Shown piece after piece: positions 9,962-62,041 of a stretch of 64,000 nt of DNA. Position 1 is the stretch's first letter. Each line of letters begins with the position of its first letter. The position numbers were made by a program, and so were the translations under genes. The stretch comes from Candidatus Tanganyikabacteria bacterium (lineage in GTDB: Bacteria; Cyanobacteriota; Sericytochromatia; S15B-MN24; VGJW01), in NCBI GenBank assembly GCA_016867265.1, contig VGJW01000008.1, positions 458-64,457 of the forward strand, in the 5' to 3' direction. The notes under the pieces are model-generated. The model worked only from the letters and a program-made list of their open reading frames with translations, was not told the origin of the DNA and made no database searches.

Positions 9962-10753
9962 ATGAAACGCGTGACACCCCGGGGGGCACTTGTATCAGGC
10001 CTCCTACTCCTCTCCATTCATGCGGGCGGCTGCACCGGCACGGCGGTTCCTGGTTCCGCTGCGACGAACGTGCCCAAGAAATCGCCCGCACCCAAGCCTT
10101 CAGCGGCCGCGCCGCGAGGACCAGGCACGGACAGTATGTCCGGCTCGATCGGGGGGGGCAGCAGCCCGACTCCGTCCCCTGCCACCTCCTCTGCTCCGCA
10201 GGGAGGTCAAACGGCAGGGGAAGCAAGTGGCGGGGCCGCCTCACCAGCGCCGACACCAGCCTCGGGCAGCGGCACTTCAGGCGGCTCAAGCCCTCAGGTG
10301 CCGGTGCCAACTGCAACAACCCCTCCCCCGTCTGGAACTCCGTCCTCGGGCGGAAACGACCCTGCGCCAGGCAACAATCCCTACTTCCCGCTGGAATCGT
10401 CCGACATCAAGTTAATGATTGGCAGTTCCATTGTCGGCAATATGATCAGTACGATCTACGAGCCGGCGCCCGACGGGAACAACTCCCTGAACAAGCCAAC
10501 CACGCTGAAACTGACGGCGTCTGTCTTGCTCAATAACCTCTCCACAGACAGCAGGGCCAAGTGGGAATCCAGGAACAGACTTGTGGCAATTGTTGACGCA
10601 ACAGGGCTCGTGACGGCAGTGGGCCGAGGCAGGACTGAAATTATCGCCAGACCTGCGGATGACCTGAGTTACCCAGCGGGCTACACGGTACCCACGGCAA
10701 CCGCGGTGATAGAAGTTCGTGCCGTCGCGGCCATCGACCTGGTGGTGGAGTGA
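9962..10753 (+). CDS. lipoprotein with Pro/Ser/Gly-rich linker and C-terminal Big_2-like Ig domain
   Basis: AAGGAAGG RBS. Lipobox LLLLSIHAGGCTG. Low-complexity PAPKPSAAAPRGPG...TPPPSGTPSSGG. C-terminal Big_2-like motif (LVAIVDATGLVTAVGRGRTEIIARP). Confidence 0.65.
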   Translation: MKRVTPRGALVSGLLLLSIHAGGCTGTAVPGSAATNVPKKSPAPKPSAAAPRGPGTDSMSGSIGGGSSPTPSPATSSAPQGGQTAGEASGGAASPAPTPASGSGTSGGSSPQVPVPTATTPPPSGTPSSGGNDPAPGNNPYFPLESSDIKLMIGSSIVGNMISTIYEPAPDGNNSLNKPTTLKLTASVLLNNLSTDSRAKWESRNRLVAIVDATGLVTAVGRGRTEIIARPADDLSYPAGYTVPTATAVIEVRAVAAIDLVVE

Positions 10754-28432: not shown

Positions 28433-28460
28433 CTGCTTGGGGTAAGGTGAGGACATCACC

Positions 28461-31400: not shown

Positions 31401-33182
31401 CAGATCGCCCTCGACGAGGAAGTTCCTCGGGACGAGGACGGCGAGCCCCTGCTGGAAACCACCGAGAGCGTCCTCGAGGAGTTCGTGTCGGCGGGCATCC
31501 CGTTCTGCCGCCTGAAGTGGCATTACCGCAGCCAGCACCCCTCCCTGATCCAATACTCCAACGTGCAGTGCTACGACGGTGAGTTGCTGACGCCCCCGTC
31601 GCCCTTGCCGCGATCAGAGACCCTCGGGCTTGCCTTCCACCACGTCGCGGACGGCATCTATGAGGGGCAGGGCCGCAACCCTCGCGAGGCCCGTGCCGTG
31701 GCCGAAGCCGTCATGGCTCACTTCCGCCGGCACCCCGACTTGTCTCTGGGCGTCGGCACCTTCAACCAGGCACAGCAGCAGCTGATCCTCGATGAAGTGG
31801 ACCGCCTGCGCCGCCAAGAGCCCGATCTGGAAGCCCTCTTCGGACGGGACCGGCCCGAGCCCTTCTTCGTGAAGCACCTCGAAACCATTCAGGGCGATGA
31901 GCGCGACGTCATCCTGATCTCGGTCTCTTACGGCCGCAACAGCCAGGGTCGCATCCACCAGCTCTTCGGTCCCCTGAACCAGGACCAAGGCTGGCGCCGG
32001 CTGAACGTCCTCGCCTCGCGAGCTCGCAAGCGGATGGCGGTCTACGCGTCCATCCTTGCCGAGGACCTGCGCCTGGGTCCCGCGCAGTCGGATGGACCAA
32101 GGCTGCTGCGGACCTTCCTGCACTTCGCCCAGACCGGACATCTGGACCTTCCGGGCGGCCACGCCGACGCACTGCCCGAGAACGCCTTTGAGGCCGGAGT
32201 ACGCGGGGAGCTTGCACGGCTGGGCCACGAGGTCGTCTCCCAGGTCGGCGTGGCCGGCTTCCGCATTGATCTGGCCGTCATGGACCCGGCGCGACCGGGT
32301 CGCTTCCTGTGCGGCATCGAGTGCGACGGCGCCAGCTATCACAGCTCCCCCACGGCCCGGGACCGGGATCGCCTGCGCCAGCAACTGCTCGAGGCCCGGG
32401 GCTGGACCATCCTGCGGGTCTGGTCGACGGACTGGTTCAAGGACCGTGCCGGCGAGGTCGCGCGCCTGGATGCACGGTTGAAAGAGTTGGCGAGGCAGGC
32501 CCAACCGGTGTCGGCAGTCGAAACGGCGAATACGGAGGCAGCCGCGTCCATCACCGTTGCCCCAGAGGCCCCCTCTGCTGCGCCCGTTACGGCGACCGAC
32601 GGCAGCGATGCTCGCGAACGCCCCTACCGGCGCCCGGTCCTGACACGCTATGTGGCCGTCACCGAGTTGACGCCGGCGCCCGGCGGCGAGCTGGCCGAAG
32701 CCCCGCTCGACCTGCTGGCCCGCCACCTGCGCCAGATCGCGGCGGTCGAGGCCCCCATCCACGTCGATGAACTTGCGGCAAGGCTCGTGGCTATCTGGCA
32801 ACGCCGACAGGGCAGCCGCATCCGGGCGCACCTCGACAGGGCCTTGGCCATCCTGCTCCGCGAGGGTGGCTTGGTGCGTCGCGGCGACTTCATCCATCGG
32901 GAGGAAGGCCGGGTCCTGCCACGCTGCCGCACGGACGTGGCCCTGAAGGCGGATCGGATCGCACCCGAGGAATACGGCGCGGCCTTGCTCGCCGTGCTTG
33001 CAGACGGCCACGGCTTCGATCGGGACCGACTGTTGGGGGAAGTGCGGGGCGTGTTGGGCTTCAGCCGGACAGGTCCCCAGCTGGAAGCCGCCATCGAGGC
33101 CGCCATGCAGGATTTGCTGGCCCAAGGAGCCCTTGGCCAGGGCAGTGCAGGCGTCGCGCTGCGGGAAGGCCAGGGGGGCTGA
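28461..33182 (+). CDS. large DUF4011 / SF1 (Upf1-like) helicase / DUF559-Vsr-like endonuclease protein (Hhe-like single-gene defence candidate)
   Basis: Walker A GPPGTGKSQTITNLIAS. Motif II VVFDEASQL and VVGDPRQLPPT. C-terminal helicase motifs (ETIQGDERDVILIS; LNVLASRARKRM). Endonuclease-like fold FRIDLAVMDPARPGRFLCGIECDGASYHSS...RDRLRQQLLEARGWTILRVWSTDWF. AAGGTGAGGA RBS. Confidence 0.85.
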   Translation: MTVSPSTDITARAEASVEAWKRRLLDLSLRNRALNLKTGGPGALACEGPDPVQALRHLVLDEQRYGFHATRTTEGTEEDPAVAPGVPEASLAVAMTRHALDGALRRLDDAAARAREDQGLGILFLCLGQIRWVDPRQPGTPLLAPLLLLPVTLSRRAVGGSYHLEASQEDPIVNPTLAEALRHHHRIELPALPDDLDPPDEQQPDPLAAWFDDVTREIGRMDKGAIEHRVVLTTLSFAKYVMYRDLNVLAPGLAAHPLASRLFQRKVDEMVGLPASMRDLDLDRDHPPENTPQIVDADGSQLRAVAAVSRGHDLVLEGPPGTGKSQTITNLIASVLARGGRVLFVAEKKAALDVVHAKLAAAGLGECCLELHAAKATRRAVLASIGEALDRSLAQVTPPSGAGPVLKDSRARLAAYLGALHQTTPEGGLSARMWMDRLEPVRQAPRCTLEGAPAAWNETLWREAIRALEALGQTGTALGNPADHPWRGCRLILLTEDRTARIDEAAGLLRQALDTARDAAVAVAGNYGLPPLRKLSDLAMAASLGDMLAEAPGLPMLDEAWQAPPPAATAALEALRTLANRRKAIAPWAEGRWDACTALPRETLSADLAHVRAARQRLWGLGALLDGRVRHLRRHWANLGDKLSAADTEQRLADVVAWRDAVAAVEAMAAEGQRVFGGLWRGTATDAEALGQAMDWMVAFRALCVRHQLSREPLAGVAGQRHPEVSDLRALRQRLEALRTALRSLEEAVAWPEGWLANEDLDEADRRVEALQARLADGPRWTAWEGARQQVLATEGRRILAAVDDGRIPPAQAAAAFQRAAAVERLDALVAGNPVLASFNGPVHEQDIDTFRKLDQQVLQDNRLGLVAGHRHRLQEAFRQPDLQAELQILRREVNRLRAHRPLRETMRKAGRAIRTIKPCLLMSPLTVAQFLPPDIEAFDLVVFDEASQLPTQDAIGAIARGRQLVVVGDPRQLPPTNFFQIALDEEVPRDEDGEPLLETTESVLEEFVSAGIPFCRLKWHYRSQHPSLIQYSNVQCYDGELLTPPSPLPRSETLGLAFHHVADGIYEGQGRNPREARAVAEAVMAHFRRHPDLSLGVGTFNQAQQQLILDEVDRLRRQEPDLEALFGRDRPEPFFVKHLETIQGDERDVILISVSYGRNSQGRIHQLFGPLNQDQGWRRLNVLASRARKRMAVYASILAEDLRLGPAQSDGPRLLRTFLHFAQTGHLDLPGGHADALPENAFEAGVRGELARLGHEVVSQVGVAGFRIDLAVMDPARPGRFLCGIECDGASYHSSPTARDRDRLRQQLLEARGWTILRVWSTDWFKDRAGEVARLDARLKELARQAQPVSAVETANTEAAASITVAPEAPSAAPVTATDGSDARERPYRRPVLTRYVAVTELTPAPGGELAEAPLDLLARHLRQIAAVEAPIHVDELAARLVAIWQRRQGSRIRAHLDRALAILLREGGLVRRGDFIHREEGRVLPRCRTDVALKADRIAPEEYGAALLAVLADGHGFDRDRLLGEVRGVLGFSRTGPQLEAAIEAAMQDLLAQGALGQGSAGVALREGQGG

Positions 33183-49591: not shown

Positions 49592-51844
49592 CTACTCGGG
49601 AATCACCACCCGGCACGTCCGGACCTCGCCTTGGGCCGTCCGCCAGATGGCACGCACGCCCGAGGCATCTTGGGCCAAGCGGGTTGCATTGCCTTCGTCC
49701 GCCAATGGCTGGACCTGCGACACGACCAGCGTGAGACTGCCGGCATCGACCCGCTTGGCCCGGACCCACACGACAACGGGACGATACCCTTTGCCATCCG
49801 GGCGTCGGATGGTCGCACCGACCAGCAGGGCCTCCCCGAAGGGCACGATGGAGGGTGTGTGCTGGATGGGATCGACCAAGGCATCACCGACGCCGATGAG
49901 CGGAATCGGTCCGGGCAAATCACCGAAGCGCATGGACTCCGAGGCCTGTGGCGCATCTGGCTCGAGGTCGGCCGGCAGGCCTCCCGGATGCGCGAAGCCA
50001 CGGACATGGAGCTGGTATTCGCCGGAACCGGGCGCCACGGAAACCAGCCAGGCACCGCCGTCCGGCCTGGGCGCCATCGCCGGCAGCCGAGGCCCCGAGG
50101 TCACGCCGAGCACGTTGGTAGCCACCACGCTACCCGCGGCATCGACGAGGGCACGCACGATCATGCGCTGGCCGCTACCGGCCGAGGCAGCGGTGCCATA
50201 GGCCCACAGCAGATAGCCCGCCCCCCAGGGCACAGCCGCGATACGCTCGCTCGAAGGGGCATCGAAGTTCATGCCCGAGCCGTCCGAGAAGCCGAAGCCG
50301 CCGCTGCCAAGAAAGGCCAAGCGTCCCCCGGCCGTCTCGAAGGCATGGGTACGCAGGCGCCACGAGAGCCCCGCGCGTGCAAGGCAGACAAGCAGGACCC
50401 GCGTGCCCCTCACCATCACGGTACCCAGGCGCAGATCCTCTCCCTCGCGCGAGATTCTTACGGTCCGATCCTCGACACCCGTTGGTTGACGGCCATCCGG
50501 ATCAAGCAGGCCGATGGTCACGGAACCGGTTGCCACGGACTCGGGCGTCCTTGTTGCGAGGACCACATAGGGACCGACACGCGCGAGGGCCATGGCCTGT
50601 TCGCCCGGGGACGTGTCGATGACATAGGCGACGGTCTGACCCTGACGTCCATCTGCGGCTATCGGCTGCAAGGCAATCGTCTGAGCGCCGCTGAAGGCCA
50701 GCGGCTCCCAAGCCGCAAGCCAACCCTCGGCGGTATCGACGAGCATGACACCCCGATCCGCTTGGCTGCTTCCGGTAGCCATCGACCACAAGGGGGGAGC
50801 CGCGAAGCCGACCCGCAGGTCGCCCGTCGCCACGAGACGACCCGAAGTCACGGTCAGGAGACCATCACCCGAGGTCACAGGCCGCCAGACACCATCCGGG
50901 GAGGCACCCTCGCCAGTCAACTCCACCCGTGCCGCCTCCGATGGCAGCCATTCTGGGGAGCCGCTCCCGACCACACCCGTGGGGGCGAATGGAAACTCCC
51001 CGCCCGACCACCCGTAGAGGCGCCCGTCGATGGGCCAAGGCCGCATGTCACCCGTCGCCACGAAGCCTACGGAGGACAAGGGCCGAAAAGACAATGCCTG
51101 CAGATTCGGCACGCCGTCGACCCGGACCGTCACCGTGCCCTCGGTCGTACCCTCGGGCACCGTCACCTCGAGGGCATCCGTGGCAGCCTTGGCGACCTGC
51201 TCTGCGGCACCCGTGAAGGACACGCTCACGGAACGACTGGCCGTGACGGGAAACGAGCCCTCGAGGACGAGCTTGGCTCCCGGCCCCGCAACAGCCGGGC
51301 GCAAGCGCGTCAGGACAGGCCGGAAGAGCGGCTCGAGCAACAAGCTGACGGGTGTCCTTACATGCGGTGCGGTCGTGATCCCTTCAGTTCGCCCCCTGGC
51401 CACCACCACGCCATCCCCGTCGCGCGCCTCGGCTTCGAGGACCAGATTGGTTCCCGTCCGGGCCGACATGGTGGCCTCGGCAACGGCCACGCCCGGCTGG
51501 CGAAGCAGCAAGGCCCGGCCACGCTCGACACCGGCCGAGGTCGAAAGCACCAGATCGAGTCGATCCGTGCTGCGCGGCAACAGTTGCACCGCACGGCCGG
51601 ACTCGGGCCAGCGGACGCGAACCAGCAGTTCGCCTTCGGAGGCGGACAGCCAGGCAGCTTCGGGCTGCGCGGCCTCATCCGGGACGACGCCCCCTGCTAC
51701 GGCAGCCTTGGTGTCCACGGATCCCGGTTGGGCAACGGCGGACGCGGCCCGGCTGGCCTGGCTGGCCAGAGGCGCAGTGGGCAGGGCTTGGCAGGCCGCC
51801 AGAAGCAGCACGGGCAGGAAGGCGCGCGAAGTACGGAGCATCAC
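49592..51844 (-). CDS. large secreted lipoprotein (IPT/beta-rich)
   Basis: Lipobox VLLLAACQA. Start overlaps the stop of the upstream paralog (GTGATG). Beta-rich repeats. Confidence 0.55.
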   Translation of the reverse strand: MMLRTSRAFLPVLLLAACQALPTAPLASQASRAASAVAQPGSVDTKAAVAGGVVPDEAAQPEAAWLSASEGELLVRVRWPESGRAVQLLPRSTDRLDLVLSTSAGVERGRALLLRQPGVAVAEATMSARTGTNLVLEAEARDGDGVVVARGRTEGITTAPHVRTPVSLLLEPLFRPVLTRLRPAVAGPGAKLVLEGSFPVTASRSVSVSFTGAAEQVAKAATDALEVTVPEGTTEGTVTVRVDGVPNLQALSFRPLSSVGFVATGDMRPWPIDGRLYGWSGGEFPFAPTGVVGSGSPEWLPSEAARVELTGEGASPDGVWRPVTSGDGLLTVTSGRLVATGDLRVGFAAPPLWSMATGSSQADRGVMLVDTAEGWLAAWEPLAFSGAQTIALQPIAADGRQGQTVAYVIDTSPGEQAMALARVGPYVVLATRTPESVATGSVTIGLLDPDGRQPTGVEDRTVRISREGEDLRLGTVMVRGTRVLLVCLARAGLSWRLRTHAFETAGGRLAFLGSGGFGFSDGSGMNFDAPSSERIAAVPWGAGYLLWAYGTAASAGSGQRMIVRALVDAAGSVVATNVLGVTSGPRLPAMAPRPDGGAWLVSVAPGSGEYQLHVRGFAHPGGLPADLEPDAPQASESMRFGDLPGPIPLIGVGDALVDPIQHTPSIVPFGEALLVGATIRRPDGKGYRPVVVWVRAKRVDAGSLTLVVSQVQPLADEGNATRLAQDASGVRAIWRTAQGEVRTCRVVIPE

Positions 51845-53445
51845 TGGATCTCCACCACCAATTCACCTTGGCTGCGCACCTCGACCGTCAGGTCGACGGC
51901 ACGATCCGGGTCGGCAAGCGGACGCGCCCGGACCCGTGCCGTCGTGTCGTAAGTGCCGACCATCGCCTCGACACGCCCCGTCCCGTCCACACGGACCGGG
52001 CCGGCCAGCACTTCCCAGGACCATGGGCCGTCGTACGAAGAACCATCCGCGTGACGGGCCACGGGCTTGAGGCGCGTCGCGACGGACAGGCCGGGCAGAG
52101 GCGTGGCCTCGGCGACAGGCAAGGGCGCGAGCACGGGCGACAGACCCGGCAGGCGCTCGACCGTGGCGATGGACGGCACCACCTCGATCGCTGCCACGGC
52201 ATCCAGTTCGCCCCGGCGCGCCCGGAAACGCACGGTGCCTGCAGCGAGTCCCTGAACCAAGCCCCCCGTGAGGGAGGCGGACCCCGAGTCAGGTAGGACT
52301 TGGATGCCCGACGGACCGGCTTGGATGGTCGCAAACGTGCCACCGCGCGAGGAGCCCTGGAACAGGATGCTGCGGGTGGCCCCCACCGCGAGAGGCCACG
52401 GCCCCACGTGGGACCAAGTCGCCGTCGACGAGACAGGACGAGCCAATTCAAGGCGCAGTCCGTCGATGATGTCGAGTCTGCGCGCCGGTCCCGTCAGGCT
52501 GCCGATCCGAGCGGCGACCTCGCCGGACCCCGCACCAAGCGGCACGACAAAAGCCATGGATTCATCTGCCAACTCGAGGCCGGGAGCAACCACGCCGTTG
52601 ATCAGGACCTCGGCACGCGCGCCACGAGACGCCCCGAAGGAAAGGCCCGTTGCCTGGACCCGCTCCCCGATGACGGCCGGGTTGGGGGACAAGGTCCGGA
52701 TTTCCGGCACCGGCGTATCCAGGACCATCCCCGTGACGGTGGTGGTCTCGCCGGGCAGCACCGCCAGGCGCTCGGAGACGGCACGGCCCATGTCCGGATG
52801 GATCGCGACGAGCCGGTACAAACCCTCGGGTACGTTGCCGATACTGAACGAGCCATCCTCCGCGGCAGCAGCCAGGAAAGTCGTGCCCGGCAAGAATACC
52901 GTCGTGCCGAGAAAGTCCCTGACTACGGGCGAAATGCTGCGTATCCGTCCCGACAAGGTACCGGTGGGCCCCAGCTTCAGGGAGATGCCGGACATGACGG
53001 GCTGCGCCAGCAGAATCGCCTTGGTCACCGCGTTCCGTTCGGCCAGCAGGGTGTAACGGGCGCCTTTCTGGATCACGGGCAGGCGGAAACGGCCGAGGTC
53101 GTCCGTGAGGACCTCGCCCACGGCCGTGACGCCACCCGTACTCGCCTCGGACAGGCGGCGACCTGCACCGCCCGGCGATACCAGAGCCGCCGAGTCGTTG
53201 GACACGAGGGCCGCAGCATCGTTGGACACGAGGTAGCACTTCACGGCCACACCCGCGGCAACCCGCCCCGCTTGGTCGACCACCACGCCGCTGAAGTCCG
53301 TGGCTGCCGCCTGCAGGGTGTCCGCGGGCAGGGTCGATGCACCGGTCGCAGGGCGCTTGGCCGTGACGGTGTTCGGCCGGCAAGCGACCAGACTGGCGAC
53401 CAGCAGCAACGCTGCTGGCCCCCAAGCGAAGGCCCGGCGCGACAT
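51841..53445 (-). CDS. lipoprotein with CarbopepD_reg-like domain carrying 'LVSNDAAALVSNDSAALVS' repeats, plus IPT-like domains
   Basis: Lipobox [12 protein letters not shown]. Repeat then RR..SEA..TDDLGRFRLPVIQKGARYTLLAER (CarbopepD_reg-like). Second CarbopepD-like segment AEDGSFSIGNVPEGLYRL. Confidence 0.6.
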   Translation of the reverse strand: MSRRAFAWGPAALLLVASLVACRPNTVTAKRPATGASTLPADTLQAAATDFSGVVVDQAGRVAAGVAVKCYLVSNDAAALVSNDSAALVSPGGAGRRLSEASTGGVTAVGEVLTDDLGRFRLPVIQKGARYTLLAERNAVTKAILLAQPVMSGISLKLGPTGTLSGRIRSISPVVRDFLGTTVFLPGTTFLAAAAEDGSFSIGNVPEGLYRLVAIHPDMGRAVSERLAVLPGETTTVTGMVLDTPVPEIRTLSPNPAVIGERVQATGLSFGASRGARAEVLINGVVAPGLELADESMAFVVPLGAGSGEVAARIGSLTGPARRLDIIDGLRLELARPVSSTATWSHVGPWPLAVGATRSILFQGSSRGGTFATIQAGPSGIQVLPDSGSASLTGGLVQGLAAGTVRFRARRGELDAVAAIEVVPSIATVERLPGLSPVLAPLPVAEATPLPGLSVATRLKPVARHADGSSYDGPWSWEVLAGPVRVDGTGRVEAMVGTYDTTARVRARPLADPDRAVDLTVEVRSQGELVVEIQ

Positions 53446-53482
53446 GTCCTTTACTTACCCACCTGGACGACCCGGAAGCGGA

Positions 53483-55498
53483 TCAGCCCCGATCGCGCGG
53501 CGGACGCCCGAAGCCCTGCCCGGGCTTGTTGCCGTAGGACTTTCGGGCAGGCGGACGATCCGGACCGGACCAACCTTGGCCGCCATCGCGATTACCGTCC
53601 CGGGGACGACGCGACGGAGGCGCGCTGCCGTCCTCCCGATAGGCAGGACGCGGTGGGCGACTGCCACCTTCTTCACGATAGGCAGGACGGGGAGGACGAC
53701 CACCACCCTCTTCACGGTAGGCCTTGCGAGGCGGTCGCGCGCCGCCTTCCTCGTCGCGATAGTCCTGGCGCGGAGCCCGACCGGGGCGCGGGCCATCACC
53801 CAGGACAGCCTGGACCTGGGCCGCGACCTCTTGCTTGATGTCGATCGTGCTGTGGTCCTGATAGAGGCGAATCGAACCGATCTCGGCGCTCGTGATGCCG
53901 GACCGCTGGCAGATGTACCGCACCAGCCAGCCCGGACGGACGGCCTGGGCCTTGCCACGCGGCACGCTGACGCGAACCATGCCGGCCTCGGGGGGACCGT
54001 CCTCGTCCTTGGTCCGGAACGGACGACGCGCCTTCGGAGACGACGGGCCCTCGTCCGACTCACGGAAAGACCGGGTGGCCCTGGGCGGACGCGTCTCGGC
54101 CGACACCTGCCGAGTCCGGGCCGGCGGCGGGGCGGGCACGTCATAGCCGGATGCCAGGATGGCCGTGGCCTCCTGCAGGTCCTGCAGCAAGGCCGCGACC
54201 AACTGGACCGGGGCAAGATTGCCCAGCAGGCGATCCGCAAATACCTCGAGGCCACCGAAGTCGGCCGATTCGCAGCGACGGGCCAGATCTTCCATGACCC
54301 GATCCTGCACGCGCTGACGGACGTCCTCGCCAGTCGGAACCGCACGCGTCTCGAAGGTGATGCCGGCCTCACCGGCAAGGCGACGGACCCGTCCGCGATC
54401 CTTGGGCGTGACCAGATTGAGCACGACGCCCTCGCGACCGGCACGGCCTGTGCGACCGCTGCGATGGACATAGGTCTCCCCCGACCCTGGCATGTCGTAG
54501 TTGACGACCAGCGTGACGCCGCGGACATCGATACCCCGGGCGGCGACGTCCGTCGCGACAAGGATCGGCACCTGCCGGGTGCGGAAGGCCTCGAGGGTGC
54601 GGGTCCGGACAGCCTGAGGCAGATCGCCGTTCAGGTAGGCGGCCTTGAATCCATCGGCCACCAAGCGGCGCGTGAGGGTCTCGGTCTCGAGCTTGGTGTG
54701 GCAGAAGACCATGGTCAGTTCGGGGGGCTCGATGTTGAAGAGATTCGCAAGCACCTCGAAGCGGCGATCCGGGAAGGTCTCGATGACACGGTGGGTCAGC
54801 GTCGTGGCGGCTTCCAAGCCGCTCGAGAGCGCGAGATGCTCGGGCTTGCGCAGGTGGCGCCGGGCGATGGCCTCGACGGCATCCGGCATGGTCGCGGAGA
54901 ACAGCAGGGTCTGGCGGGACTCGGGCATCCCCGTCAGAATCTTCTCGAGGTCCTCGGCAAAACCCATGTCGAGCATCTCGTCGGCCTCGTCGAGCACGAC
55001 GGCCACGCAACCCGACAGGTCGAGCGAGCCACGCTCGAGATGGTCGACGAGACGACCGGGGGTGCCCACGACCAACTCGGCACCGCTGCGCAGCGCGCGG
55101 AACTGATCCCCGTAGGGCGTGCCGCCCGTCAGGATGGCGACGCGACGGTCCATGGGCCGGGCTACGCGGACGGCCACGCGACCGACCTGCATCGCCAGCT
55201 CGCGGGTCGGCGTCACAACCAGCATCAGCGGACCGGGCGGCGGCACCTCGGGGTCACGGGCGCCCAGGCGCTCCATGAGCGGCAAAAGGAAAGCCAAGGT
55301 CTTGCCGGTACCGGTGCGGGACTGGACGAGCAGGTCCCGGCCCTCGCGCGCCGGGGCGAAGGCCCGCAGCTGAACTTCGGTGGGATCGACGAGCTGCATG
55401 TGGCCCAGCGCGTCCAGCAAGGGCTGGGAGATGCCGAGCGAGATGAAGCCGGTGGGGACGACAGGTGTGGCCGTGACAGCCGGTGTCTCAAGATTCAT
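53483..55498 (-). CDS. deaD: DEAD-box ATP-dependent RNA helicase with DbpA RNA-binding domain and RG-rich tail
   Basis: Motifs: Q; I (SRTGTGKT); Ia (PTRELA); II (DEAD in VVLDEADEMLD); III (SAT); VI (HRSGRTGRAGR). DbpA-like C-terminus. Tail with 3x RPPR.AYREEGG. Confidence 0.95.
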   Translation of the reverse strand: MNLETPAVTATPVVPTGFISLGISQPLLDALGHMQLVDPTEVQLRAFAPAREGRDLLVQSRTGTGKTLAFLLPLMERLGARDPEVPPPGPLMLVVTPTRELAMQVGRVAVRVARPMDRRVAILTGGTPYGDQFRALRSGAELVVGTPGRLVDHLERGSLDLSGCVAVVLDEADEMLDMGFAEDLEKILTGMPESRQTLLFSATMPDAVEAIARRHLRKPEHLALSSGLEAATTLTHRVIETFPDRRFEVLANLFNIEPPELTMVFCHTKLETETLTRRLVADGFKAAYLNGDLPQAVRTRTLEAFRTRQVPILVATDVAARGIDVRGVTLVVNYDMPGSGETYVHRSGRTGRAGREGVVLNLVTPKDRGRVRRLAGEAGITFETRAVPTGEDVRQRVQDRVMEDLARRCESADFGGLEVFADRLLGNLAPVQLVAALLQDLQEATAILASGYDVPAPPPARTRQVSAETRPPRATRSFRESDEGPSSPKARRPFRTKDEDGPPEAGMVRVSVPRGKAQAVRPGWLVRYICQRSGITSAEIGSIRLYQDHSTIDIKQEVAAQVQAVLGDGPRPGRAPRQDYRDEEGGARPPRKAYREEGGGRPPRPAYREEGGSRPPRPAYREDGSAPPSRRPRDGNRDGGQGWSGPDRPPARKSYGNKPGQGFGRPPRDRG
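53560..53730 (-). repeat. imperfect ~39-bp tandem coding repeats (RG-rich helicase tail)
   Basis: Plus-strand units such as cgataggcaggacgcggtgggcgactgccaccttcttcacgataggcaggacggggaggacgaccaccaccctcttcacggtaggc. Confidence 0.5.
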
Positions 55499-55623
55499 GT
55501 TGTAAAGGGCACCCCGACAAGTCGGAACAGAAAAAAGGGAATAGGTGGGGGCCTGATAGAGACTCCATCAGCATTATCCGGGAATCAGGGCGATCCGGCC
55601 ACTCCGCCCGAGTTGCCACAGGC

Positions 55624-57822
55624 CTACCAGTCGACCCCGTAGAGAATGGCGCCGCCGTCCTCGGTGCCCACCATCAACTGCTTGCCGTTGCCCGTGGGCG
55701 TGCCGTCGGTGATGAATCGGAGAGCATTGACGACCGTCCCCCCGGGGCGAAAGTCGAGGACGATCCGGCCGTCTGCCATGCTGCCGAGACGCACGACACC
55801 GTCGCTCCCCCCGTAGGCCAGCCACATGCCGTCGGGAGAGAGTGCCGCAGCGCGTATCTCGCCACCCTTCACCTTCGGAATAGAGAATTTCCGCAATTCG
55901 ACGCCCGACGCCACGTCATAGATCCTAATTTTGCCATCCGAGCCGCCTACGGCCACCCGGGAGGCATCCCCCGACAAGGAAATCGACGTGATGGCTCCTG
56001 TCTGAAAGGGCGAGGTGAAGACCTCGGTCCCGTCCAGGGCGTCCACGACGCGGGCCAAGAAGTCATCCGCCCCGCAAGCGTAGCGCCCGCCGCGAGCATC
56101 GGCCGACCGGACCCAGCCAAAGGTGGCGATCGACCGCAGGACGCTCCCTGTCGTCATGTCGTACAGGGCCGCCCGGTTGTCGCTGCCGCTGACCCAGAGG
56201 GTGTCCGACTTGGGCCCCGGCCACGCCGAGTAGAGCTGGGCCTGAACCGAAAGACTGGCAATGGGTGTCACGCTGACGGGCGGGACATTGCCCGAGACCC
56301 GACGCTGGTCGATGACCCCCTCACGCGTGGCCGATGCCACCATGTAGCCCGATGCGTCCGACAAGGCCGTTATCGAGACCCCATAAACGGAACCGCCGGG
56401 TCTCCAGGTCACCATCGGGTTGCCTGAAATCACGTCCCCGACCGTGACGGCGCCGCCGTCGTAACCCAGGACGAACAGTTGGCCGTCCTCGGAGAAGTCG
56501 ACGGCCTTGATGCGGTCCCCCTGCGCATAGAAAGCCTTGGTGAACAGCCGGGGATCCGGACGAGGCGTCGGAACGGGGCTGGGGACCGGCGTCGGCGCCA
56601 CGGTCGGCGTCGGGGCAGGCATGGGCGTCGGTGCGAGAGTCGGCGTGGGACTGGGCACGGGCGAAGGGGTCGGCGTCTCGACGGGCAGGGGCACTTGGGA
56701 TTCGCCCGGAATCGGCGTCGATTCGGCATCGGGAGTCGGCGTCGGAACGGGCGAAGGCAGGACGGTAGGCTGGCTCGTGGGGGTAACAGAGGGCCCCGGG
56801 GTAGGCACGGGTGAAGGAGAGGGCGCCACCGTCGCCTGCGGCGCTCCGGGCGTTGGTGTGGGCTGGACCACGACCGGCCCGGTCGACGGAGTCGAGACGG
56901 GTGCAGGCGTGACGGTGCCCGTGGGTGACGGCGTGGCGGAATGCGTGGCGAGGGGCGCGAGCGTCGCAACCGGGACGGGCGACGCGCCGACACGCCAAGG
57001 CTGTCCCTTGGGTGCCAAGCGCACGAGCGGCAGTTCGCGCGCCACACCCGGAACGACCACGACGTCACGGTCGCCGAACGGCCTGGCCGCACCCAGATCC
57101 GGATGCCAAAGGACGACGTCGTGGGCCCCCGAGGGAAGTTCGGGAACCTCCCACGTCCCGTCCGCAGCGACCCGAGCCACGTACGGGCTGCCTGCGATAA
57201 GGATCTCGACGCCCGGCGGGGGGAAACCTTGTCCCCCGGCCTCGGGCATCAGGACGCGACCGCGCAAGGTCGCGACGGGCCGGACACTCAGGCGTACGTC
57301 CGCCGTGGCGACCTCGGCACCGACCACCAGCGGCCCCCCCCAACCCTTGTCCGTCCGGCTGCGCAGTGCCTCGAGATTGTAACGGCCGGCAGGCAAGCGA
57401 AGCCTGAAGCGCCCATCCGCATCCGTCAGCGCGTCCGCCGACAAGGTACGCCTCCCTGCTCCGGATAGGGCCGCAGCCTGGTTCCCGACCAACGCGGCCG
57501 AATCATTGGCGATGAGACCGGCGGCATAGTTGCCGACGAGTGCGGCCACATCGTTGGCCACGAGCCGGGCCTTGGACTCGGGAGGCAATTCGCCTGCCGG
57601 CCAGGCACGCACTTGCACGGCCACAAGCGGCAGGCCCTCAGGATCGACCACCTGGCCCACAAGCTCGAAACGAGAAAGGGCATCCGGCGTCGCCACCGTG
57701 ACGCCGGACCGGCCCAGATCAGCCACGCTCCCGGAGAAGCCCGTCCGACAGCCGGCAAGCAGGGTCACCGCGGCAAGCAGCCTGAGTACTGCCGCCCCGA
57801 AGGCCTTGGCGCCCGTAGCCAT
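55624..57822 (-). CDS. lipoprotein: CarbopepD_reg-like domain with LVANDVAALVGN repeats, Pro/Thr linker, WD40 beta-propeller
   Basis: ATG 57822 with AGGA RBS (MATGAKAF...LLAGCRTGF lipobox); the upstream 774 nt of ORF ..58596 is judged non-coding. Repeat LVANDVAALVGNYAAGLIANDSAALVGNQAAAL precedes the RR..TDADGRFRLRLPAGRYNLEAL motif. ~150-aa PT-rich linker. C-terminal WD40 blades. Confidence 0.75.
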   Translation of the reverse strand: MATGAKAFGAAVLRLLAAVTLLAGCRTGFSGSVADLGRSGVTVATPDALSRFELVGQVVDPEGLPLVAVQVRAWPAGELPPESKARLVANDVAALVGNYAAGLIANDSAALVGNQAAALSGAGRRTLSADALTDADGRFRLRLPAGRYNLEALRSRTDKGWGGPLVVGAEVATADVRLSVRPVATLRGRVLMPEAGGQGFPPPGVEILIAGSPYVARVAADGTWEVPELPSGAHDVVLWHPDLGAARPFGDRDVVVVPGVARELPLVRLAPKGQPWRVGASPVPVATLAPLATHSATPSPTGTVTPAPVSTPSTGPVVVQPTPTPGAPQATVAPSPSPVPTPGPSVTPTSQPTVLPSPVPTPTPDAESTPIPGESQVPLPVETPTPSPVPSPTPTLAPTPMPAPTPTVAPTPVPSPVPTPRPDPRLFTKAFYAQGDRIKAVDFSEDGQLFVLGYDGGAVTVGDVISGNPMVTWRPGGSVYGVSITALSDASGYMVASATREGVIDQRRVSGNVPPVSVTPIASLSVQAQLYSAWPGPKSDTLWVSGSDNRAALYDMTTGSVLRSIATFGWVRSADARGGRYACGADDFLARVVDALDGTEVFTSPFQTGAITSISLSGDASRVAVGGSDGKIRIYDVASGVELRKFSIPKVKGGEIRAAALSPDGMWLAYGGSDGVVRLGSMADGRIVLDFRPGGTVVNALRFITDGTPTGNGKQLMVGTEDGGAILYGVDW
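56555..57005 (-). repeat. coding low-complexity Pro/Thr/Ser/Val-rich linker repeats
   Basis: Translates to PTPTPGAPQATVAPSPSPVPTPGPSVTPTSQPTVLPSPVPTPTPD...PTPMPAPTPTVAPTPVPSPVPTPRP. Plus strand shows reiterated ggcgtcgg/gggcacgg units. Confidence 0.6.
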
Positions 57823-58649
57823 CTTGAATCCTGTCGCCTGTTCACCCGTCGGGGAGCCAAGCAAGCCCTGTGCTCCCCATACGGATAATGACGCAGGTTG
57901 CGGGAGAAGTCGTTCTATTTCACATTCGCTTGATGGGCACTTAGTTCCACGGCCCTTGGCGCAACGCGAGCGAATCTTCCAGCGCGTCGCTTCGGCCGTC
58001 GAAGGAGAAGGCCTCCGTAACGGCTTGGCGCGTCGGTCCGGAACACCCGCCCTTGCTGCATGAGCGCGGGCGATTGCGCACGCGGACAACCCAGGCAAGC
58101 CCGCGATCCGGCAGGTCAGGCCCGGCATGACACCCAACTCGCCTTCCCAGTCGATGAGTCCGTCGGGCTGTCGCAGCAGGGAAACACTGACGGTCGACGT
58201 CCCCGATGGCGGCTGGATGGGGACGAGGACCGTGCCCGAGAACGGCTTGTCGGCCAAGGGCACGGACAACGGGACATTCGCCCGGTCCTCGATGTCCTGG
58301 CCGCTGCCGAGCGTAGTGGAGGCGGTGGCAGGCGTTCCCGAGATGACGACGGGCGGACTCGTCGTGGCAAGGGCCTCGGCCGTAATCTGCACCCGGGCCC
58401 CGGGTAACAGGCCACCCCACCCTCCCGTCGACACGCCCGCGGATGCCGCGGGCAAGCCAGCGCCGGACCATCGCCTGCTGGCGACGTCCGGCACCGACCT
58501 CCACGCGCACCAAGACGGCACCTTGGCCCCGGCCACCCTCGATGCCGTCGGGCGGTACTGCGGAGAGGCAGCCCGTAAGGCAGCCACCCACCGCAAGGAT
58601 CAGACCCGCAAGTCTGCGACCTGATGCCAGGGCCATGTCGCGCAACCCG

Positions 58650-59216
58650 TCAGAGCGCGCCGCCCGTGACCGGGCCATCCGTCACGAAGGCACCGTCAAG
58701 AGGCGTCAGCGAGAGCCCCGCCTGGCCCGCGAACACGACATCGTCGAGCGGCACGTCCACGGCCAGCACCCGCGTATCCTCGAGGTCGTTGGAGCCCAGG
58801 AAGTCGAAGGGCACCACGATCGGCCGTTGGCTGTTGATGTGTTGCTGAGCGGCCGTGAAGGCCTGCACCGTCAGGCGATAGGCCCGCTGGCCCGTCAGGT
58901 TCCCGAAGACCGCCTGGCTTTGGCCCTGGGCCGGCTGCACCCCGACGCTGGCCTGATTCAGCCAAGTAGGCACACCGCCCGGCCCATCGGGCCCCCGCTG
59001 GTCGAGGATGACCTCGAAACGGGCCACGTCGGACGGTACCCAGCGATGCCTTATGGCTTGCAAGGCGCGTGTGGCATCGGCACCGACCGAGAGATCGACG
59101 ACGACACGCCGCTCAGGGTTGCGTTCGTCCGTACCCGGAGGCACGGGCTGTCCGGGACTGCCCGCGCAGCCCGCCATCAGAAGCCACAAGACCCATCCCC
59201 GCTTGCCCACGGCCAT
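58650..59216 (-). CDS. small lipoprotein, unknown function
   Basis: ATG 59216 with GGAGGG RBS. Lipobox WLLMAGCAGS. The longer ORF to 59390 is trimmed. Confidence 0.5.
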   Translation of the reverse strand: MAVGKRGWVLWLLMAGCAGSPGQPVPPGTDERNPERRVVVDLSVGADATRALQAIRHRWVPSDVARFEVILDQRGPDGPGGVPTWLNQASVGVQPAQGQSQAVFGNLTGQRAYRLTVQAFTAAQQHINSQRPIVVPFDFLGSNDLEDTRVLAVDVPLDDVVFAGQAGLSLTPLDGAFVTDGPVTGGAL

Positions 59217-59349
59217 GACGTGACCCTCCATCCGGACGCTCGTCCGATAGGGTTCACACTGCCGCCCGCCCGACCAGCCGACACCGGCAGGATGCACGAC
59301 GAGGCCATGTCCCGCCCGACAATCATCCCGGGGCCCCTCCCCCGGACCA

Positions 59350-61546
59350 TCAGTCCCAGATGACGTCGAAGGCCAGCAGACCCTCTCCATCCGTTGCCTC
59401 GTAGAGGCGGTCGCCGTTGTCGGTCGCCCTGACGCAGGTCGTGAAGCGCAATCCGGTGACCTTCACGGAGCCCGTCCAGGGCGTCGCGACGATCGCGCCA
59501 TCGGCGACCCGAGCCACCGTCACCCGGTTGTCGAGGCCGCCCAAAGCCACATATCGGCCATCGGGTGACATCGCCAAGGCCAGGATCGCTGCATCCGCCC
59601 GCCACTCCCTCAGCGTGATGCCGTCCGGAACCGTGAGCACGACCACCTTGCCCTCACGATCGCCAACGACGACACGTGCTGCATCGCCGGAAAGGGCCAA
59701 CGCGTCGACGCCGCGACCCACGGGCAGTGACGTCATGATCTCGCGGCCATCCGCAATATCCACGACCCGCAGCAGGAGGTCTTCCCCGCCATAGGCTAGG
59801 CGCGTGATCTGGGCGTCCATGGCGTACAGGGCACCGAACGCCGGGAGCGAGACCAAGGTGCCAGTTTGCCAACTGCGCAGCTGCGCCAGCCCATCCGAGC
59901 CGATGCGCCAGTAGCGCGTTTCGTTGGCGAAGCCGAGGATACCCGTGACGGCAACCTGGGCGTCCCCGACGGATTCGGAGGAAACAGCCGTCGACACGTC
60001 CCCCTCACCAAGACCGGAGAGGGTCCGGAGCGCCACGGTCCCCTGGGAGGTACCCGTCAGGACCTGATACCCGGGATCGAGCAACCGACTGGTGAGCCAG
60101 ATGCTGCGGACAGGCTGACCGGCATCCCAGGTGTGGGCCAGGCCGCCATCATCCCCCCTGTATATCCGGACGAGGCCATCTGCCCTCCGGGCCAGCGCGA
60201 TGGCCTTGCGGTCGCCGGAAACATCCAGAACGTCAAACGGATCCCCCTGGGCAAGAGTCATGCGGTAGGTGAACCGCAGGCCGGGCGCTGGTGTGGGTGT
60301 TAGTGCAGGTGTTGGTGCGGGTGTCGGCGAGGGAGAGGGCGTCGGTGAGGGCGCAGGAGTGGGCGTGGACACAGGCACCGCGGATGGAGACGGGCTCGGG
60401 GTCACCGCCGGCAAGGTCGTCTCCGGCGCCGGCGTAAGTTGGACGTCCCCTGGCGTCGTGGTCGGCGCAGGCAAGGTGGCCGAAGGAGTCGGAGCGGGTG
60501 ATGGCGTGACCGGAGCCGGGCTTGCCGGAAAAGAAGACGAAGGACCCGGTGACGGCGTGACCGGAGTCGACGATGGCGACATCGAGGGCGAGGGGGAAGA
60601 TACAGGCTCTGGCGTCGTCCCCGGCTCGGTTGACGGCGCGGCTCGGGTCGAGGCGACAGGCCTGGGGGATGGACTCAGCAAGACCCAAGGCTTCCCCTTG
60701 GAGGCAAGGGCGAGCGACGGCACCTCGACGAGCCCCCCGGGGCCCACCGACAGAAATACGTTTGCGTAGGGACGCACCACCCCAAGTCCGGGATGCCAGA
60801 CCAGAAGGTCATGTGCGCCGGCCGGCACCCCGTCCAGCCGCCACGAGCCATCCGCCGCGACCTTGGTCCCGTAGGGAGAGCCCGCAAGCAGAACCTCCGC
60901 GTCAGGAAGCACCTCGGAGAGAGCGATTGCATCGGGCAGCAGGAGACGTCCACGGAGCGTGCCGACAGGCTGCAGACGCAACGCAAGGCTCAGGGACCCG
61001 GCGCTCCCATCGGCGCGTATGTCACGCAACCAGGCCTTGACAGCCGAGCTCCGGACAACCTCGAGGTTGTAGGTGCCTTGGGGTACGTCAAGGGCGAAGC
61101 GACCCTCGGCATCCGTCAAGGCACGATGGAGCAGCGCGGAGGGCACCCTGCGTGAGGCAGCACCGTTCGCCACCAAGCCTGCCGCGTCCTGACCCACGAG
61201 CCCTGCCGCGTAATCGGCGATGAGCGAAGCCACATCGTTGGCGACCAACCCTGCGCCAAAGCCGTCCGGCAGCATGCCGACAGGAAAGGTCCGCACCAGG
61301 ATGCCCGCGACCGGCTTGCCGGCCTCATCCAGAACCCGCCCCCCCCAAGGACACGCGTGTCGACTCCGGAACAACCGGCCCCGCTCCGGGCGTCGGTGCT
61401 GCGGGGGCAGGGCCAGCCGTGGCGGCTCCCGTCGAGGATCCGGTTCCGGTAAGGCCTGAGCCAAAGCCTGCCCGGCAACCTGCAGCAAGAACGGCCAGCA
61501 ACAGAATCGGGCACGCCCAGCCCATGCCCCAGCGGACCGTAACCAT
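59350..61546 (-). pseudogene. paralog of the CarbopepD_reg/WD40 lipoprotein, frameshifted at a G8 homopolymer between signal peptide and mature domain
   Basis: Signal peptide/lipobox MVTVRWGMGWACPILLLAVLAAGCRAGF is in the frame of ORF 61325..61546. The mature protein (GRVLDEAGKPVAGILVRTFP...LVANDVASLIADYAAGLVGQDAAGLVANGAAS...WD40) is in the frame of ORF 59350..61887. The frames meet at 61339-61346 (CCCCCCCC on plus = G8 coding strand). G7 would give ...RVSLGGRVLDEAG, which aligns with the intact paralog. Confidence 0.6.
60285..60720 (-). repeat. coding low-complexity Pro/Thr/Ser-rich linker repeats (paralog)
   Basis: Translates to TPEPVSSPSPSMSPSSTPVTPSPGPSSSFPASPAPVTPSPAPTPSATLPAPTTTPG...PTPAPSPTPSPSPTPAPTPALTPTPAP. 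Plus-strand ggtgtgggtgttagtgcaggtgttggtgcgggtgtcggcgaggg. Confidence 0.6.
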
Positions 61547-61606
61547 ACCTTGGCCATACTACCCGCCCAAGGGCCGCATGGCCCCACCATCGGGCATGAT
61601 GACGCC

Positions 61607-62041
61607 ATGACGTTGCAAGCTTGGTCCCTCGTGCTGGTGACGACCCTGCTGTGGGGCTTGGTACCGCTATTCGACAAACTGGCGTTGACCCGGGCCGCCG
61701 ACAGCCCGCTTGCCGGCGTGGCCGTGCGTCTCGCCACCGCGGCCCTCATCGGCCTGCCCTTGTTGTTCGCCGCATCGGGCGGTACGGGTGCTTTCCGCAG
61801 GATTCCGCCGACGGCATGGGGTTGGTTTGCGGCCAGTGGCCTGGCCTCGCTGGTTATCGCCCAGATCGCCTGGTATGCCCTGCTCAAGGACGCTCAGGTC
61901 TCGAAGACCTTCCCATTCATGTTTGCGGCCGCTCCCGTGGTGACGCTCCTGCTCGGGGTGCTGGTCCTGCACGAGCCCCTGACGCTGCGCCAGGTGATCG
62001 GCGGGGTGCTGGTCGTGCTCGGGGGGGCGCTGCTGCTTTAG
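61607..62041 (+). CDS. EamA-like (DMT superfamily) small 4-TM transporter
   Basis: Four hydrophobic helices with EamA-type spacing (SLVLVTTLLWGLVPLF ... VIGGVLVVLGGALLL). Start ATG 61607 within ORF 61550..62041. Confidence 0.55.
   Translation: MTLQAWSLVLVTTLLWGLVPLFDKLALTRAADSPLAGVAVRLATAALIGLPLLFAASGGTGAFRRIPPTAWGWFAASGLASLVIAQIAWYALLKDAQVSKTFPFMFAAAPVVTLLLGVLVLHEPLTLRQVIGGVLVVLGGALLL

What the first reader, a model, noticed from the sequence alone, without database searches (positions are those of the whole stretch)
61325..61550. G8 homopolymer frameshift exactly between the lipoprotein signal peptide and mature domain of a WD40 surface-protein paralog (phase-variation-like switch)
The signal peptide/lipobox (MVTVRWGMGWACPILLLAVLAAGCRAGF...) is encoded in one frame (ORF 61325..61546). 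The mature CarbopepD_reg/WD40 protein is in another frame (ORF 59350..61887). The two meet at a run of 8 C on the plus strand (61339-61346), i.e. G8 in the coding strand. With G7 or G10 the product reads ...ESTRVSLGGRVLDEAGKPVAGILVRTFPVG.... This aligns residue-for-residue with the intact paralog at 55624-57822 (..SRFELVGQVVDPEGLPLVAVQVRAWPAG..). Slipped-strand mispairing at a poly-G tract would switch export and lipidation of this surface protein ON or OFF. Otherwise it is a homopolymer sequencing error.
Basis: seen in the sequence. Interest (0 to 1): 0.65.

Follow-up and report, generated by a model that had tools for sequence, protein, structure and literature searches.

The report
Frameshifted lipoprotein gene at G8 run
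One extra G in a run of G's splits a surface-lipoprotein gene of an uncultured Lake Tanganyika bacterium; the extra base is real and identical in every public assembly, so this is most likely an ordinary, recently broken gene copy, not a demonstrated on/off switch.

Summary
A G8 run (coding strand; C8 at window 61339-61346) separates a lipoprotein signal peptide and linker in one frame (61546..61325) from a CarboxypepD_reg / Pro-Thr linker / WD40 body in the next frame (61344..59350). Removing one G gives a 731-aa protein that aligns end to end with the intact paralog at 57822..55624.

It is not a sequencing error. Eleven separately assembled Illumina contigs (JGI, Logan, ENA; three pipelines) and an NCBI MAG protein model all carry G8. 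This includes a second haplotype.

Nothing supports an evolved phase-variation switch:
- No assembly has G7, G9 or G10, and no in-frame product is in a 15-billion-protein collection.
- G8 runs are depleted in the window (5 seen, 14 expected).
- Every other G/C run of 7 or more lies in frame in an open ORF.
- The paralog's own G8 is equally invariant and is absent in a related species.

The body has no second lesion. Its WD40 part has dN/dS 0.22 against the only ortholog, so inactivation is recent.

Best reading: a slipped-strand +1G mutation, fixed at consensus level, giving a young pseudogene. A low-frequency ON subpopulation cannot be excluded without reads. Interest is low.

The parts
61325..61546 (-). 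Frame-A ORF (73 aa). It holds the lipoprotein signal peptide (M1-C24, lipobox LAAGC at about 61489-61475) and a Gly/Ala/Pro/Thr linker. It is cut short by TGA five codons after the G run.
   Evidence: Homologous to the signal peptides of the paralogs and of other family members, all of which have a lipobox Cys.
61339..61346 (-). G8 run (C8 on the + strand). This is the frameshift site. It reads TTG GGG GGG G|CG in frame A and TGG GGG GGG CGG in frame B.
   Evidence: G8 in 11 of 11 fetched contigs. The invariant family Gly69 is encoded here.
59350..61344 (-). Frame-B body of the gene (664 aa plus stop). CarboxypepD_reg-like region at about 61344-60676, Pro/Thr/Ser-rich linker at about 60675-60286, WD40 beta-propeller at about 60285-59353. 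No further frameshift or stop.
   Evidence: WD40 part has dN/dS 0.22 against the JAYKIS ortholog.
59350..61374 (-). NCBI gene model MBM3259302.1 (674 aa), from TTG 61374 in frame B (MFRSRHACPWGGRVLDE...). It lacks the signal peptide and is an annotation workaround for the frameshift.
55624..57822 (-). Intact paralog (732 aa; lipobox LLAGC, CarboxypepD_reg, PT linker, WD40). It serves as the reference for the repaired reading. The DNA at the homologous site is GTGGGCCAG, with no run.
   Evidence: (P0002).
57334..57341 (-). Control G8 run inside the intact paralog (codes W-G-G). In frame.
   Evidence: G8 in 10 of 10 assemblies. TGGCTCGGG in the related MAG.
51841..53445 (-). Third, more distant paralog (534 aa lipoprotein, lipobox LVAC). 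Only its N-terminal domain is homologous.
61607..62041 (+). Divergently transcribed EamA-family membrane protein gene (144 aa). It was used as the anchor to fetch independent contigs that span the run.

Best explanation
The window comes from a 'Candidatus Tanganyikabacteria' (Sericytochromatia) population of Lake Tanganyika.

The gene at 61546..59350 (-) is one of a cluster of paralogous lipoproteins. Each has a signal peptide with a lipobox, a short linker, a CarboxypepD_reg-like beta-sandwich region, a Pro/Thr linker and a beta-propeller. In this copy a run that most likely read G7 (TTG GGG GGG CGG = L-G-G-R) gained one G. The likely cause is slipped-strand mispairing during replication.

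Translation from the authentic start now ends after 73 residues. The 664-residue body is left without a start or an export signal. The allele is the consensus in every sample examined, so it is effectively fixed. The copy is a young pseudogene.

Shown: the run, the two frames, the homology across the join, the uniformity of G8, and purifying selection on the body in the past.

Inferred: the direction of the mutation (G7 to G8), its mechanism, and the loss of function.

Any G8 run reverts more often than ordinary sequence. Rare in-frame revertants may therefore exist, but there is no sign that this has been selected as a switch.
For: (1) Structure of the lesion.

(2) Real, not an artefact:
- 100% identity over 2.4 kb, with G8, in Logan SRR7990527, SRR7990546, SRR7985596, SRR7052952 and SRR7989281; in JGI 3300020222, 3300021424, 3300020603, 3300021092 and 3300021093; and in ENA ERZ27247963.
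- The NCBI MAG protein starts in frame B, which implies G8.
- The Lake Tanganyika project sequenced with Illumina HiSeq 2x150 and assembled each of its 24 samples separately (PMC8245535). That these particular contigs come from that project is inferred from the 'Tanganyikabacteria' name on the NCBI protein.

(3) No variation:
- A second haplotype (one SNP plus a 12-nt linker deletion) also has G8.
- The exact G7 and G10 products, with two alternative starts and in both haplotypes, are absent from about 15 billion proteins. The gene's 90% cluster holds only the 303-aa and 674-aa truncated models.

(4) No contingency-locus signature:
- G8 runs are depleted, 5 seen against 14.1 +/- 4.6 expected.
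- All 10 other G/C runs of 7 or more lie in frame in open ORFs.
- The paralog's G8 is constant in 10 of 10 assemblies and absent in the related species.

(5) Recent event:
- There is a single lesion.
- dN/dS is 0.22 (dS 0.38) for the WD40 part against the only ortholog, compared with 0.155-0.18 for the intact paralog pair.

(6) The signal peptide is ancestral. All full-length family members found begin with a lipobox leader 33-62 residues before the G-x-V-V-D motif.
Against: - Consensus contigs hide minority run lengths, so an ON subpopulation of a few percent would go unseen.
- All assemblies come from one lake and an almost clonal population. They are not evolutionarily independent, and some JGI and Logan contigs may derive from the same read sets.
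- The position of the run fits the classic layout of phase-variable genes: the 5' end of a surface-protein gene, in a multi-paralog family. G8 runs do switch at high rates in Campylobacter jejuni (PMC3401435).
- The body shows no decay. That is equally expected for a gene that is still used intermittently.
- The N-terminal half of the only ortholog is missing because the contig ends in the linker. The ancestral run length is therefore inferred, not observed.
Confidence: 0.65

Rival explanations
1. Genuine phase variation (a contingency locus). The run toggles G7<->G8(<->G9) by slipped-strand mispairing, turning export and lipidation of this surface lipoprotein ON or OFF. The sampled populations happen to be predominantly OFF.
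For: - A G8 run at the 5' end of a surface-lipoprotein gene in a paralog family.
- An otherwise undamaged ORF with a history of purifying selection.
- G8 runs are proven switches in C. jejuni (PMC3401435).
- G8 persists on two haplotypes without further decay.
Against: - 11 of 11 contigs and the NCBI model have G8, and no ON product is on record.
- G/C runs are under-represented and none exceeds 8.
- Other runs, including one in the paralog, never vary and are not conserved between species.
- There is no second candidate locus in 64 kb, whereas known contingency genomes carry many.
Confidence: 0.2
2. Recoding. The G8 allele is functional because a fraction of ribosomes shift +1 on GGG GGG G, or RNA polymerase slips on the run, producing the full-length lipoprotein at a low, set level.
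For: - Only the geometry fits. A +1 shift on the run restores exactly ...SLGGRVL....
- tRNA-Gly can re-pair on GGG in the +1 frame (general knowledge).
Against: - No canonical +1 stimulators. The 0-frame stop lies four codons beyond the run, not in the A site, and there is no prfB-like CUU-UGA context (sequence).
- A -1 shift would not restore the frame.
- Productive transcriptional slippage is documented mainly for A/T runs (own knowledge).
- No ortholog is available to show that the shifted arrangement is conserved.
Confidence: 0.07
3. Homopolymer sequencing or assembly error. The true sequence is G7 and the gene is intact.
For: Homopolymers are error-prone on some platforms.
Against: - The data are Illumina 2x150.
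- G8 appears in 11 contigs from different samples and three assembly pipelines (metaSPAdes at JGI, Logan, and a separate ENA assembly), and is implied by the NCBI MAG model.
- All ten other G/C runs of 7 or more in the window are in frame.
Confidence: 0.03
4. The gene is intact as annotated. It would be either a 674-aa cytoplasmic protein from TTG 61374 (the NCBI model), or a frame-B product from ATG 61556 (MAKVWLRSAGAWAGRARFCCWPFLLQVAGQALAQA...) with a makeshift signal-like N-terminus.
For: - Frame B is open upstream to 61887.
- NCBI accepted a 674-aa model.
- A GGAG lies about 10 nt upstream of the TTG (sequence).
Against: - Long open frames are expected by chance at 68% G+C. Frame B runs on into the oppositely oriented EamA gene.
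- The frame-B leader is Arg/Pro-rich, as out-of-frame sequence usually is.
- Every homolog has a lipobox leader, and frame A encodes a clearly homologous one directly upstream.
- The TTG model would place a domain that is normally exported in the cytoplasm.
Confidence: 0.05

Closest known systems
Frameshift pseudogenes created by single-base indels in homopolymer runs (ordinary bacterial gene decay)
   Same: One extra base in a mononucleotide run, a premature stop a few codons later, an intact paralog kept nearby, and the allele fixed in the population.
   Different: The lesion is very young. There is no second lesion, and dN/dS over the measurable part is still low (0.22).
Poly-G/poly-C contingency loci of Campylobacter jejuni, Neisseria, Haemophilus and Helicobacter (intragenic simple-sequence-repeat phase variation)
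   Same: A G run of switch-capable length (G8), in the 5' part of a surface-protein gene, where a change of one base toggles the frame.
   Different: - No run-length polymorphism is observed.
- Runs are depleted rather than enriched in this 68% G+C DNA, and none is longer than 8. C. jejuni has a modal length of 9 and 29 such loci per genome (PMC3401435, PMC4965091).
- The organism is a free-living lake bacterium.
- The run is not shown to be conserved.
Programmed +1 ribosomal frameshifting (prfB/RF2 type) and transcriptional slippage recoding (dnaX of Thermus, IS elements)
   Same: A +1 shift on the run would yield the full-length protein.
   Different: There is no A-site stop or rare codon at the shift site, no conserved stimulator, a G run rather than an A/T run, and no conservation data.
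Bacterial lipoproteins with CarboxypepD_reg (PF13620) beta-sandwich and WD40/Kelch beta-propeller modules
   Same: Domain composition by Pfam, and a lipobox leader in all family members.
   Different: A small family. Full-length relatives reach only about 40% identity. The two closest are annotated as Sericytochromatia, and the other family members found are unnamed. Function is unknown, and the linker is unusually long (about 130 aa, Pro/Thr/Ser-rich).

Membership tests
Simple-sequence-repeat contingency locus (phase-variable gene) | A hypermutable mononucleotide run inside the ORF or promoter, whose length sets the reading frame | tested here: met
   G8 at 61346-61339. G7 or G10 restores the frame. 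The length is at the lower edge of known switches (PMC3401435).
Simple-sequence-repeat contingency locus (phase-variable gene) | Run-length polymorphism among or within populations, with both ON and OFF alleles observed | tested here: not met
   G8 in 11 of 11 contigs, including a second haplotype, and in the NCBI model. No in-frame product among about 15 billion proteins. Within-sample minority alleles are not testable without reads.
Simple-sequence-repeat contingency locus (phase-variable gene) | Runs over-represented relative to base composition and present in several surface or modification genes | tested here: not met
   5 G8/C8 runs against 14.1 +/- 4.6 expected, and none longer. The other runs are in frame. 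Only 64 kb was examined.
Simple-sequence-repeat contingency locus (phase-variable gene) | The run is conserved at the same site in related strains or species while its length differs | not testable with these tools
   The only ortholog (JAYKIS010000061) ends inside the linker and lacks the N-terminal half. The control run in the paralog is not conserved.
Frameshift pseudogene | Reading frame disrupted relative to intact homologs, so that the authentic start yields a truncated product | tested here: met
   A 73-aa product from the authentic start. The body in the +1 frame aligns end to end with the paralog.
Frameshift pseudogene | The disrupting allele is fixed rather than an artefact | tested here: met
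   (at consensus level).
Frameshift pseudogene | Relaxed selection or accumulation of further lesions | tested here: not met
   A single lesion. dN/dS is 0.22 against 0.155-0.18 for the intact paralog. This fits very recent inactivation and does not distinguish it from a gene still in use.
Programmed +1 ribosomal frameshift (prfB-like) | A slippery P-site codon followed by a slow or stop codon in the A site, with an upstream SD-like stimulator, conserved among orthologs | tested here: not met
   The sequence reads UUG GGG GGG GCG GGU UCU GGA UGA, with the stop four codons downstream. Conservation is not testable.
Bacterial lipoprotein (Lol/Lgt substrate) | An N-terminal signal peptide ending in a lipobox with an invariant Cys | tested here: met
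   MVTVRWGMGWACPILLLAVLAAG-C24. The Cys is aligned and invariant in five family members, and lipoboxes are present in further homologs. No dedicated predictor was available.

The most novel reading that the evidence does not exclude
The G run is a working contingency locus. Minority G7 cells in the lake population express and lipidate this surface protein, while the G8 majority does not. That would give a free-living, non-photosynthetic cyanobacterial relative (Sericytochromatia / 'Tanganyikabacteria') a bet-hedging switch, for example against phage or grazers. It would be the first such case in this lineage and one of few outside host-associated bacteria.
Probability: 0.12. Interest if true: 0.45.

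Novelty: new member of a known kind. Interest (0 to 1): 0.15.

Why it matters
Mostly as an annotation correction. Public gene models for this locus are all artefacts of one extra G. They are a 303-aa fragment with two antisense ORFs in JGI, Logan and ENA, and a 674-aa signal-less 'hypothetical protein' in NCBI. The locus should be read as a frameshifted lipoprotein paralog.

The case also gives a clean example of how independent metagenome assemblies can separate a real homopolymer frameshift from a sequencing error.

If read-level data showed run-length heterogeneity, it would become a modestly interesting case of phase variation in an uncultured free-living lineage.

Tried and rejected
- Exact-pattern scan of metagenome contigs with a variable-length G run. 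It gave 0 hits, although JGI contigs with this sequence exist. The collection is a subset, so the result is uninformative.
- Protein-guided scan of metagenome contigs with the N-terminal 291 aa. No relatives.
- Genome-contig scan. It found only the JAYKIS ortholog, truncated in the linker, so the run state in a sister species could not be read.
- Word-indexed homolog searches. The full-length query missed even the identical 303-aa fragment, probably because the Pro/Thr linker swamped the candidates. The N-terminal query returned nothing, because the 674-aa NCBI protein is hidden behind a 303-aa cluster representative. The C-terminal query found only itself and the JAYKIS fragment.
- Exhaustive HMMER search of 1.84 billion representatives. 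It found no full-length ortholog closer than the paralog cluster (41%).
- GC3 frame plots. These were too noisy in this Gly/Ala/Pro-rich, 68% G+C DNA to call frames, so they were replaced by ORF and homology checks.
- Promoter and terminator scan around the start. No promoter-like site. The two overlapping terminator-like hits inside the signal-peptide codons were treated as chance.
- Sequencing-error, recoding and 'intact as annotated' readings were considered and given low weight (see rivals).

Full report
**1. The observation**

The minus strand of the window reads ...GTG TCC TTG GGG GGG GCG GGT TCT GGA TGA... at the reported site. The G8 run occupies 61346-61339, which is C8 on the + strand.

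Frame A (61546..61325) encodes MVTVRWGMGWACPILLLAVLAAGC RAGFGSG...ESTRVSLGGAGSG*. This is a lipoprotein-type leader with Cys24, followed by a Gly/Ala/Pro/Thr linker. Frame B is open from 61887 to 59350. From codon 61344 it encodes GGRVLDEAGKPVAGILVRTFPVG....

- Deleting one G gives a 731-aa protein. Adding two gives 732 aa.
- The G7 product aligns over its whole length with the intact neighbour 57822..55624 (36% identity, E 1e-105).
- In a five-member alignment the join falls on the only invariant Gly of the L-x-G-x-V-V-D motif (G69).
- Pfam finds CarboxypepD_reg and WD40-type propeller matches in both paralogs.
- The paralog has GTGGGCCAG at the homologous site, with no run.

The only refinement is that the run lies 44 codons after the lipobox Cys, at the start of the first domain.

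**2. Where the window comes from**

The paralog's database entry and the gene's own NCBI model are annotated as 'Candidatus Sericytochromatia bacterium' and 'Candidatus Tanganyikabacteria bacterium'. That lineage was described from Lake Tanganyika metagenomes. The project took 24 depth-discrete samples, sequenced them on Illumina HiSeq 2500 at 2x150, and assembled each separately with metaSPAdes (PMC8245535). I infer from the 'Tanganyikabacteria' name that the contigs used below come from that project. I did not check the sample accessions against the paper.

**3. Is the extra G real?**

I fetched contigs through the exact products of two neighbouring genes, the paralog and the divergent EamA gene. 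This gave 11 contigs that span the run:
- Logan: SRR7990527, SRR7990546, SRR7985596, SRR7052952, SRR7989281
- JGI: 3300020222, 3300021424, 3300020603, 3300021092, 3300021093
- ENA: ERZ27247963

All 11 have G8. Ten are 100% identical to the window over up to 2.4 kb.

The eleventh, L019, is a second haplotype. It has a G-to-A change at 61492 (V19I in the signal peptide) and a 12-nt in-frame deletion in the linker at 60307-60296. It still has G8.

The NCBI MAG protein MBM3259302.1 (674 aa) starts MFRSRHACPWGGRVLDE..., from TTG 61374 in frame B. That model is only possible with G8.

All ten other G/C runs of 7 or more in the window lie in frame inside open ORFs, at 517, 10151, 11673, 12254, 14826, 30150, 45648, 57334, 62021 and 62408. 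There is therefore no systematic homopolymer problem. A sequencing or assembly error is very unlikely.

**4. Is it a switch?**

Four tests were possible.

- *Length variation at consensus level.* None was found in 11 contigs and two haplotypes.
- *ON-state products.* I looked up the exact G7 and G10 proteins, with two alternative starts and in both haplotypes, in a collection of about 15 billion proteins. None is present. The gene's 90% cluster holds only the 303-aa and 674-aa truncated models. An exhaustive HMMER search of 1.84 billion representatives finds no full-length relative closer than the paralog cluster.
- *Run statistics.* The window has 5 G8/C8 runs against 14.1 +/- 4.6 in dinucleotide-preserving shuffles, and none longer than 8. 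This is depletion, the opposite of contingency-locus genomes.
- *An internal control.* The intact paralog has its own in-frame G8 (57341-57334, W-G-G). It is G8 in 10 of 10 assemblies. The related MAG JAYKIS01 has TGGCTCGGG there.

G8 runs in this lineage therefore arise by ordinary substitution and are stable at consensus level. None of this excludes a minority G7 subpopulation within samples. Only reads can show that.

**5. How old is the lesion?**

The body has no other frameshift or stop. The only ortholog is in JAYKIS010000061, whose contig ends in the linker. Against it, the last 331 codons give dN 0.084, dS 0.377 and dN/dS 0.22. The intact paralog pair gives 0.155-0.18. The gene was under purifying selection for most of the time since the two species split. 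The frameshift is therefore recent, or the gene is still in use.

**6. Mechanism**

The best-supported reading is a slipped-strand +1G insertion in an ancestral G7 (L-G-G-R). It is now the consensus allele. It ends translation after 73 residues and leaves the 664-residue body without a start or an export signal.

Every full-length homolog found has a lipobox leader 33-62 residues ahead of the conserved motif. The frame-A leader is therefore the true N-terminus. The frame-B models are artefacts of long chance ORFs in 68% G+C DNA.

Recoding is geometrically possible, because a +1 shift on GGG GGG G restores the protein. But the context lacks an A-site stop or pause, since the stop lies four codons downstream. 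A -1 shift would not help. G runs are also not the usual substrate for productive transcriptional slippage; this last point rests on my own knowledge.

**7. Comparison with known systems**

The locus has the layout of a poly-G contingency gene such as those of Campylobacter jejuni, where G8 and G9 runs switch at high rates and the modal length is nine (PMC3401435). It fails two defining tests that could be run here: observed length polymorphism and run over-representation. A third, conservation of the run, is untestable. It meets the structural definition of a frameshift pseudogene but shows no further decay. I file it as a recent homopolymer-frameshift pseudogene, with phase variation as the main rival.

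My estimates are:
- young pseudogene, 0.65
- phase variation, 0.20
- recoding, 0.07
- intact as annotated, 0.05
- sequencing or assembly error, 0.03

**8. Verdict**

The feature is real but ordinary. The practical outcome is an annotation correction, since four different public gene models for this locus are artefacts of one extra G. Interest is 0.15. It would rise to about 0.45 only if read-level heterogeneity were shown.

Noticed in passing
window 59350-61546 (-); L001 6668-7458 and 7562-8473; L012-L020: Public gene calls for this locus disagree and all are artefacts. JGI, Logan and ENA call a 303-aa C-terminal fragment plus two antisense ORFs (134 and 120 aa) over the N-terminal domain. NCBI calls a 674-aa signal-less protein from a TTG in frame B.
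   Followed up: yes
L019 (JGI 3300021092), corresponding to window 61492 and 60296-60307: A second haplotype in the lake population. It has a G-to-A SNP (V19I in the signal peptide, synonymous in frame B) and a 12-nt in-frame deletion (PALT) in the Pro/Thr linker. The G8 run is unchanged.
   Followed up: yes
window 60286-60675 and 56500-57000; ends of L003, L011, L015, L018-L020: The Pro/Thr/Ser-rich linkers of these lipoprotein genes (about 130 aa) are where many short-read assemblies break. One break removed the N-terminal half of the only known ortholog.
   Followed up: partly
window 57334-57341 (-): The intact paralog carries its own in-frame G8 (W-G-G). It is invariant in 10 assemblies, and the related MAG JAYKIS010000061 has TGGCTCGGG there.
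   Followed up: yes
window 49592-61546 (-), also 7421-9937 (+) and 9962-10753 (+): A dense set of predicted lipoproteins, each with a lipobox Cys in its leader. Four lie on the minus strand (61546-59350, 57822-55624, 53445-51841, 51844-49592), interrupted by a DEAD-box helicase gene (55498-53483). Two more are near 7.4-10.8 kb, and the smaller of these has an in-frame G8 at 10151-10158.
   Followed up: partly
window 28446-33179 (+): A 1578-aa ORF with DUF4011, AAA_11/AAA_12 helicase, MTES_1575 nuclease and DUF3320 domains. It contains an in-frame C8 run at 30150-30157.
   Followed up: no
tool behaviour: The metagenome contigs pattern scan returned nothing although JGI contigs with the exact sequence were later fetched. 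The word-indexed protein search missed a 100%-identical 303-aa fragment when the query contained the low-complexity linker.
   Followed up: partly
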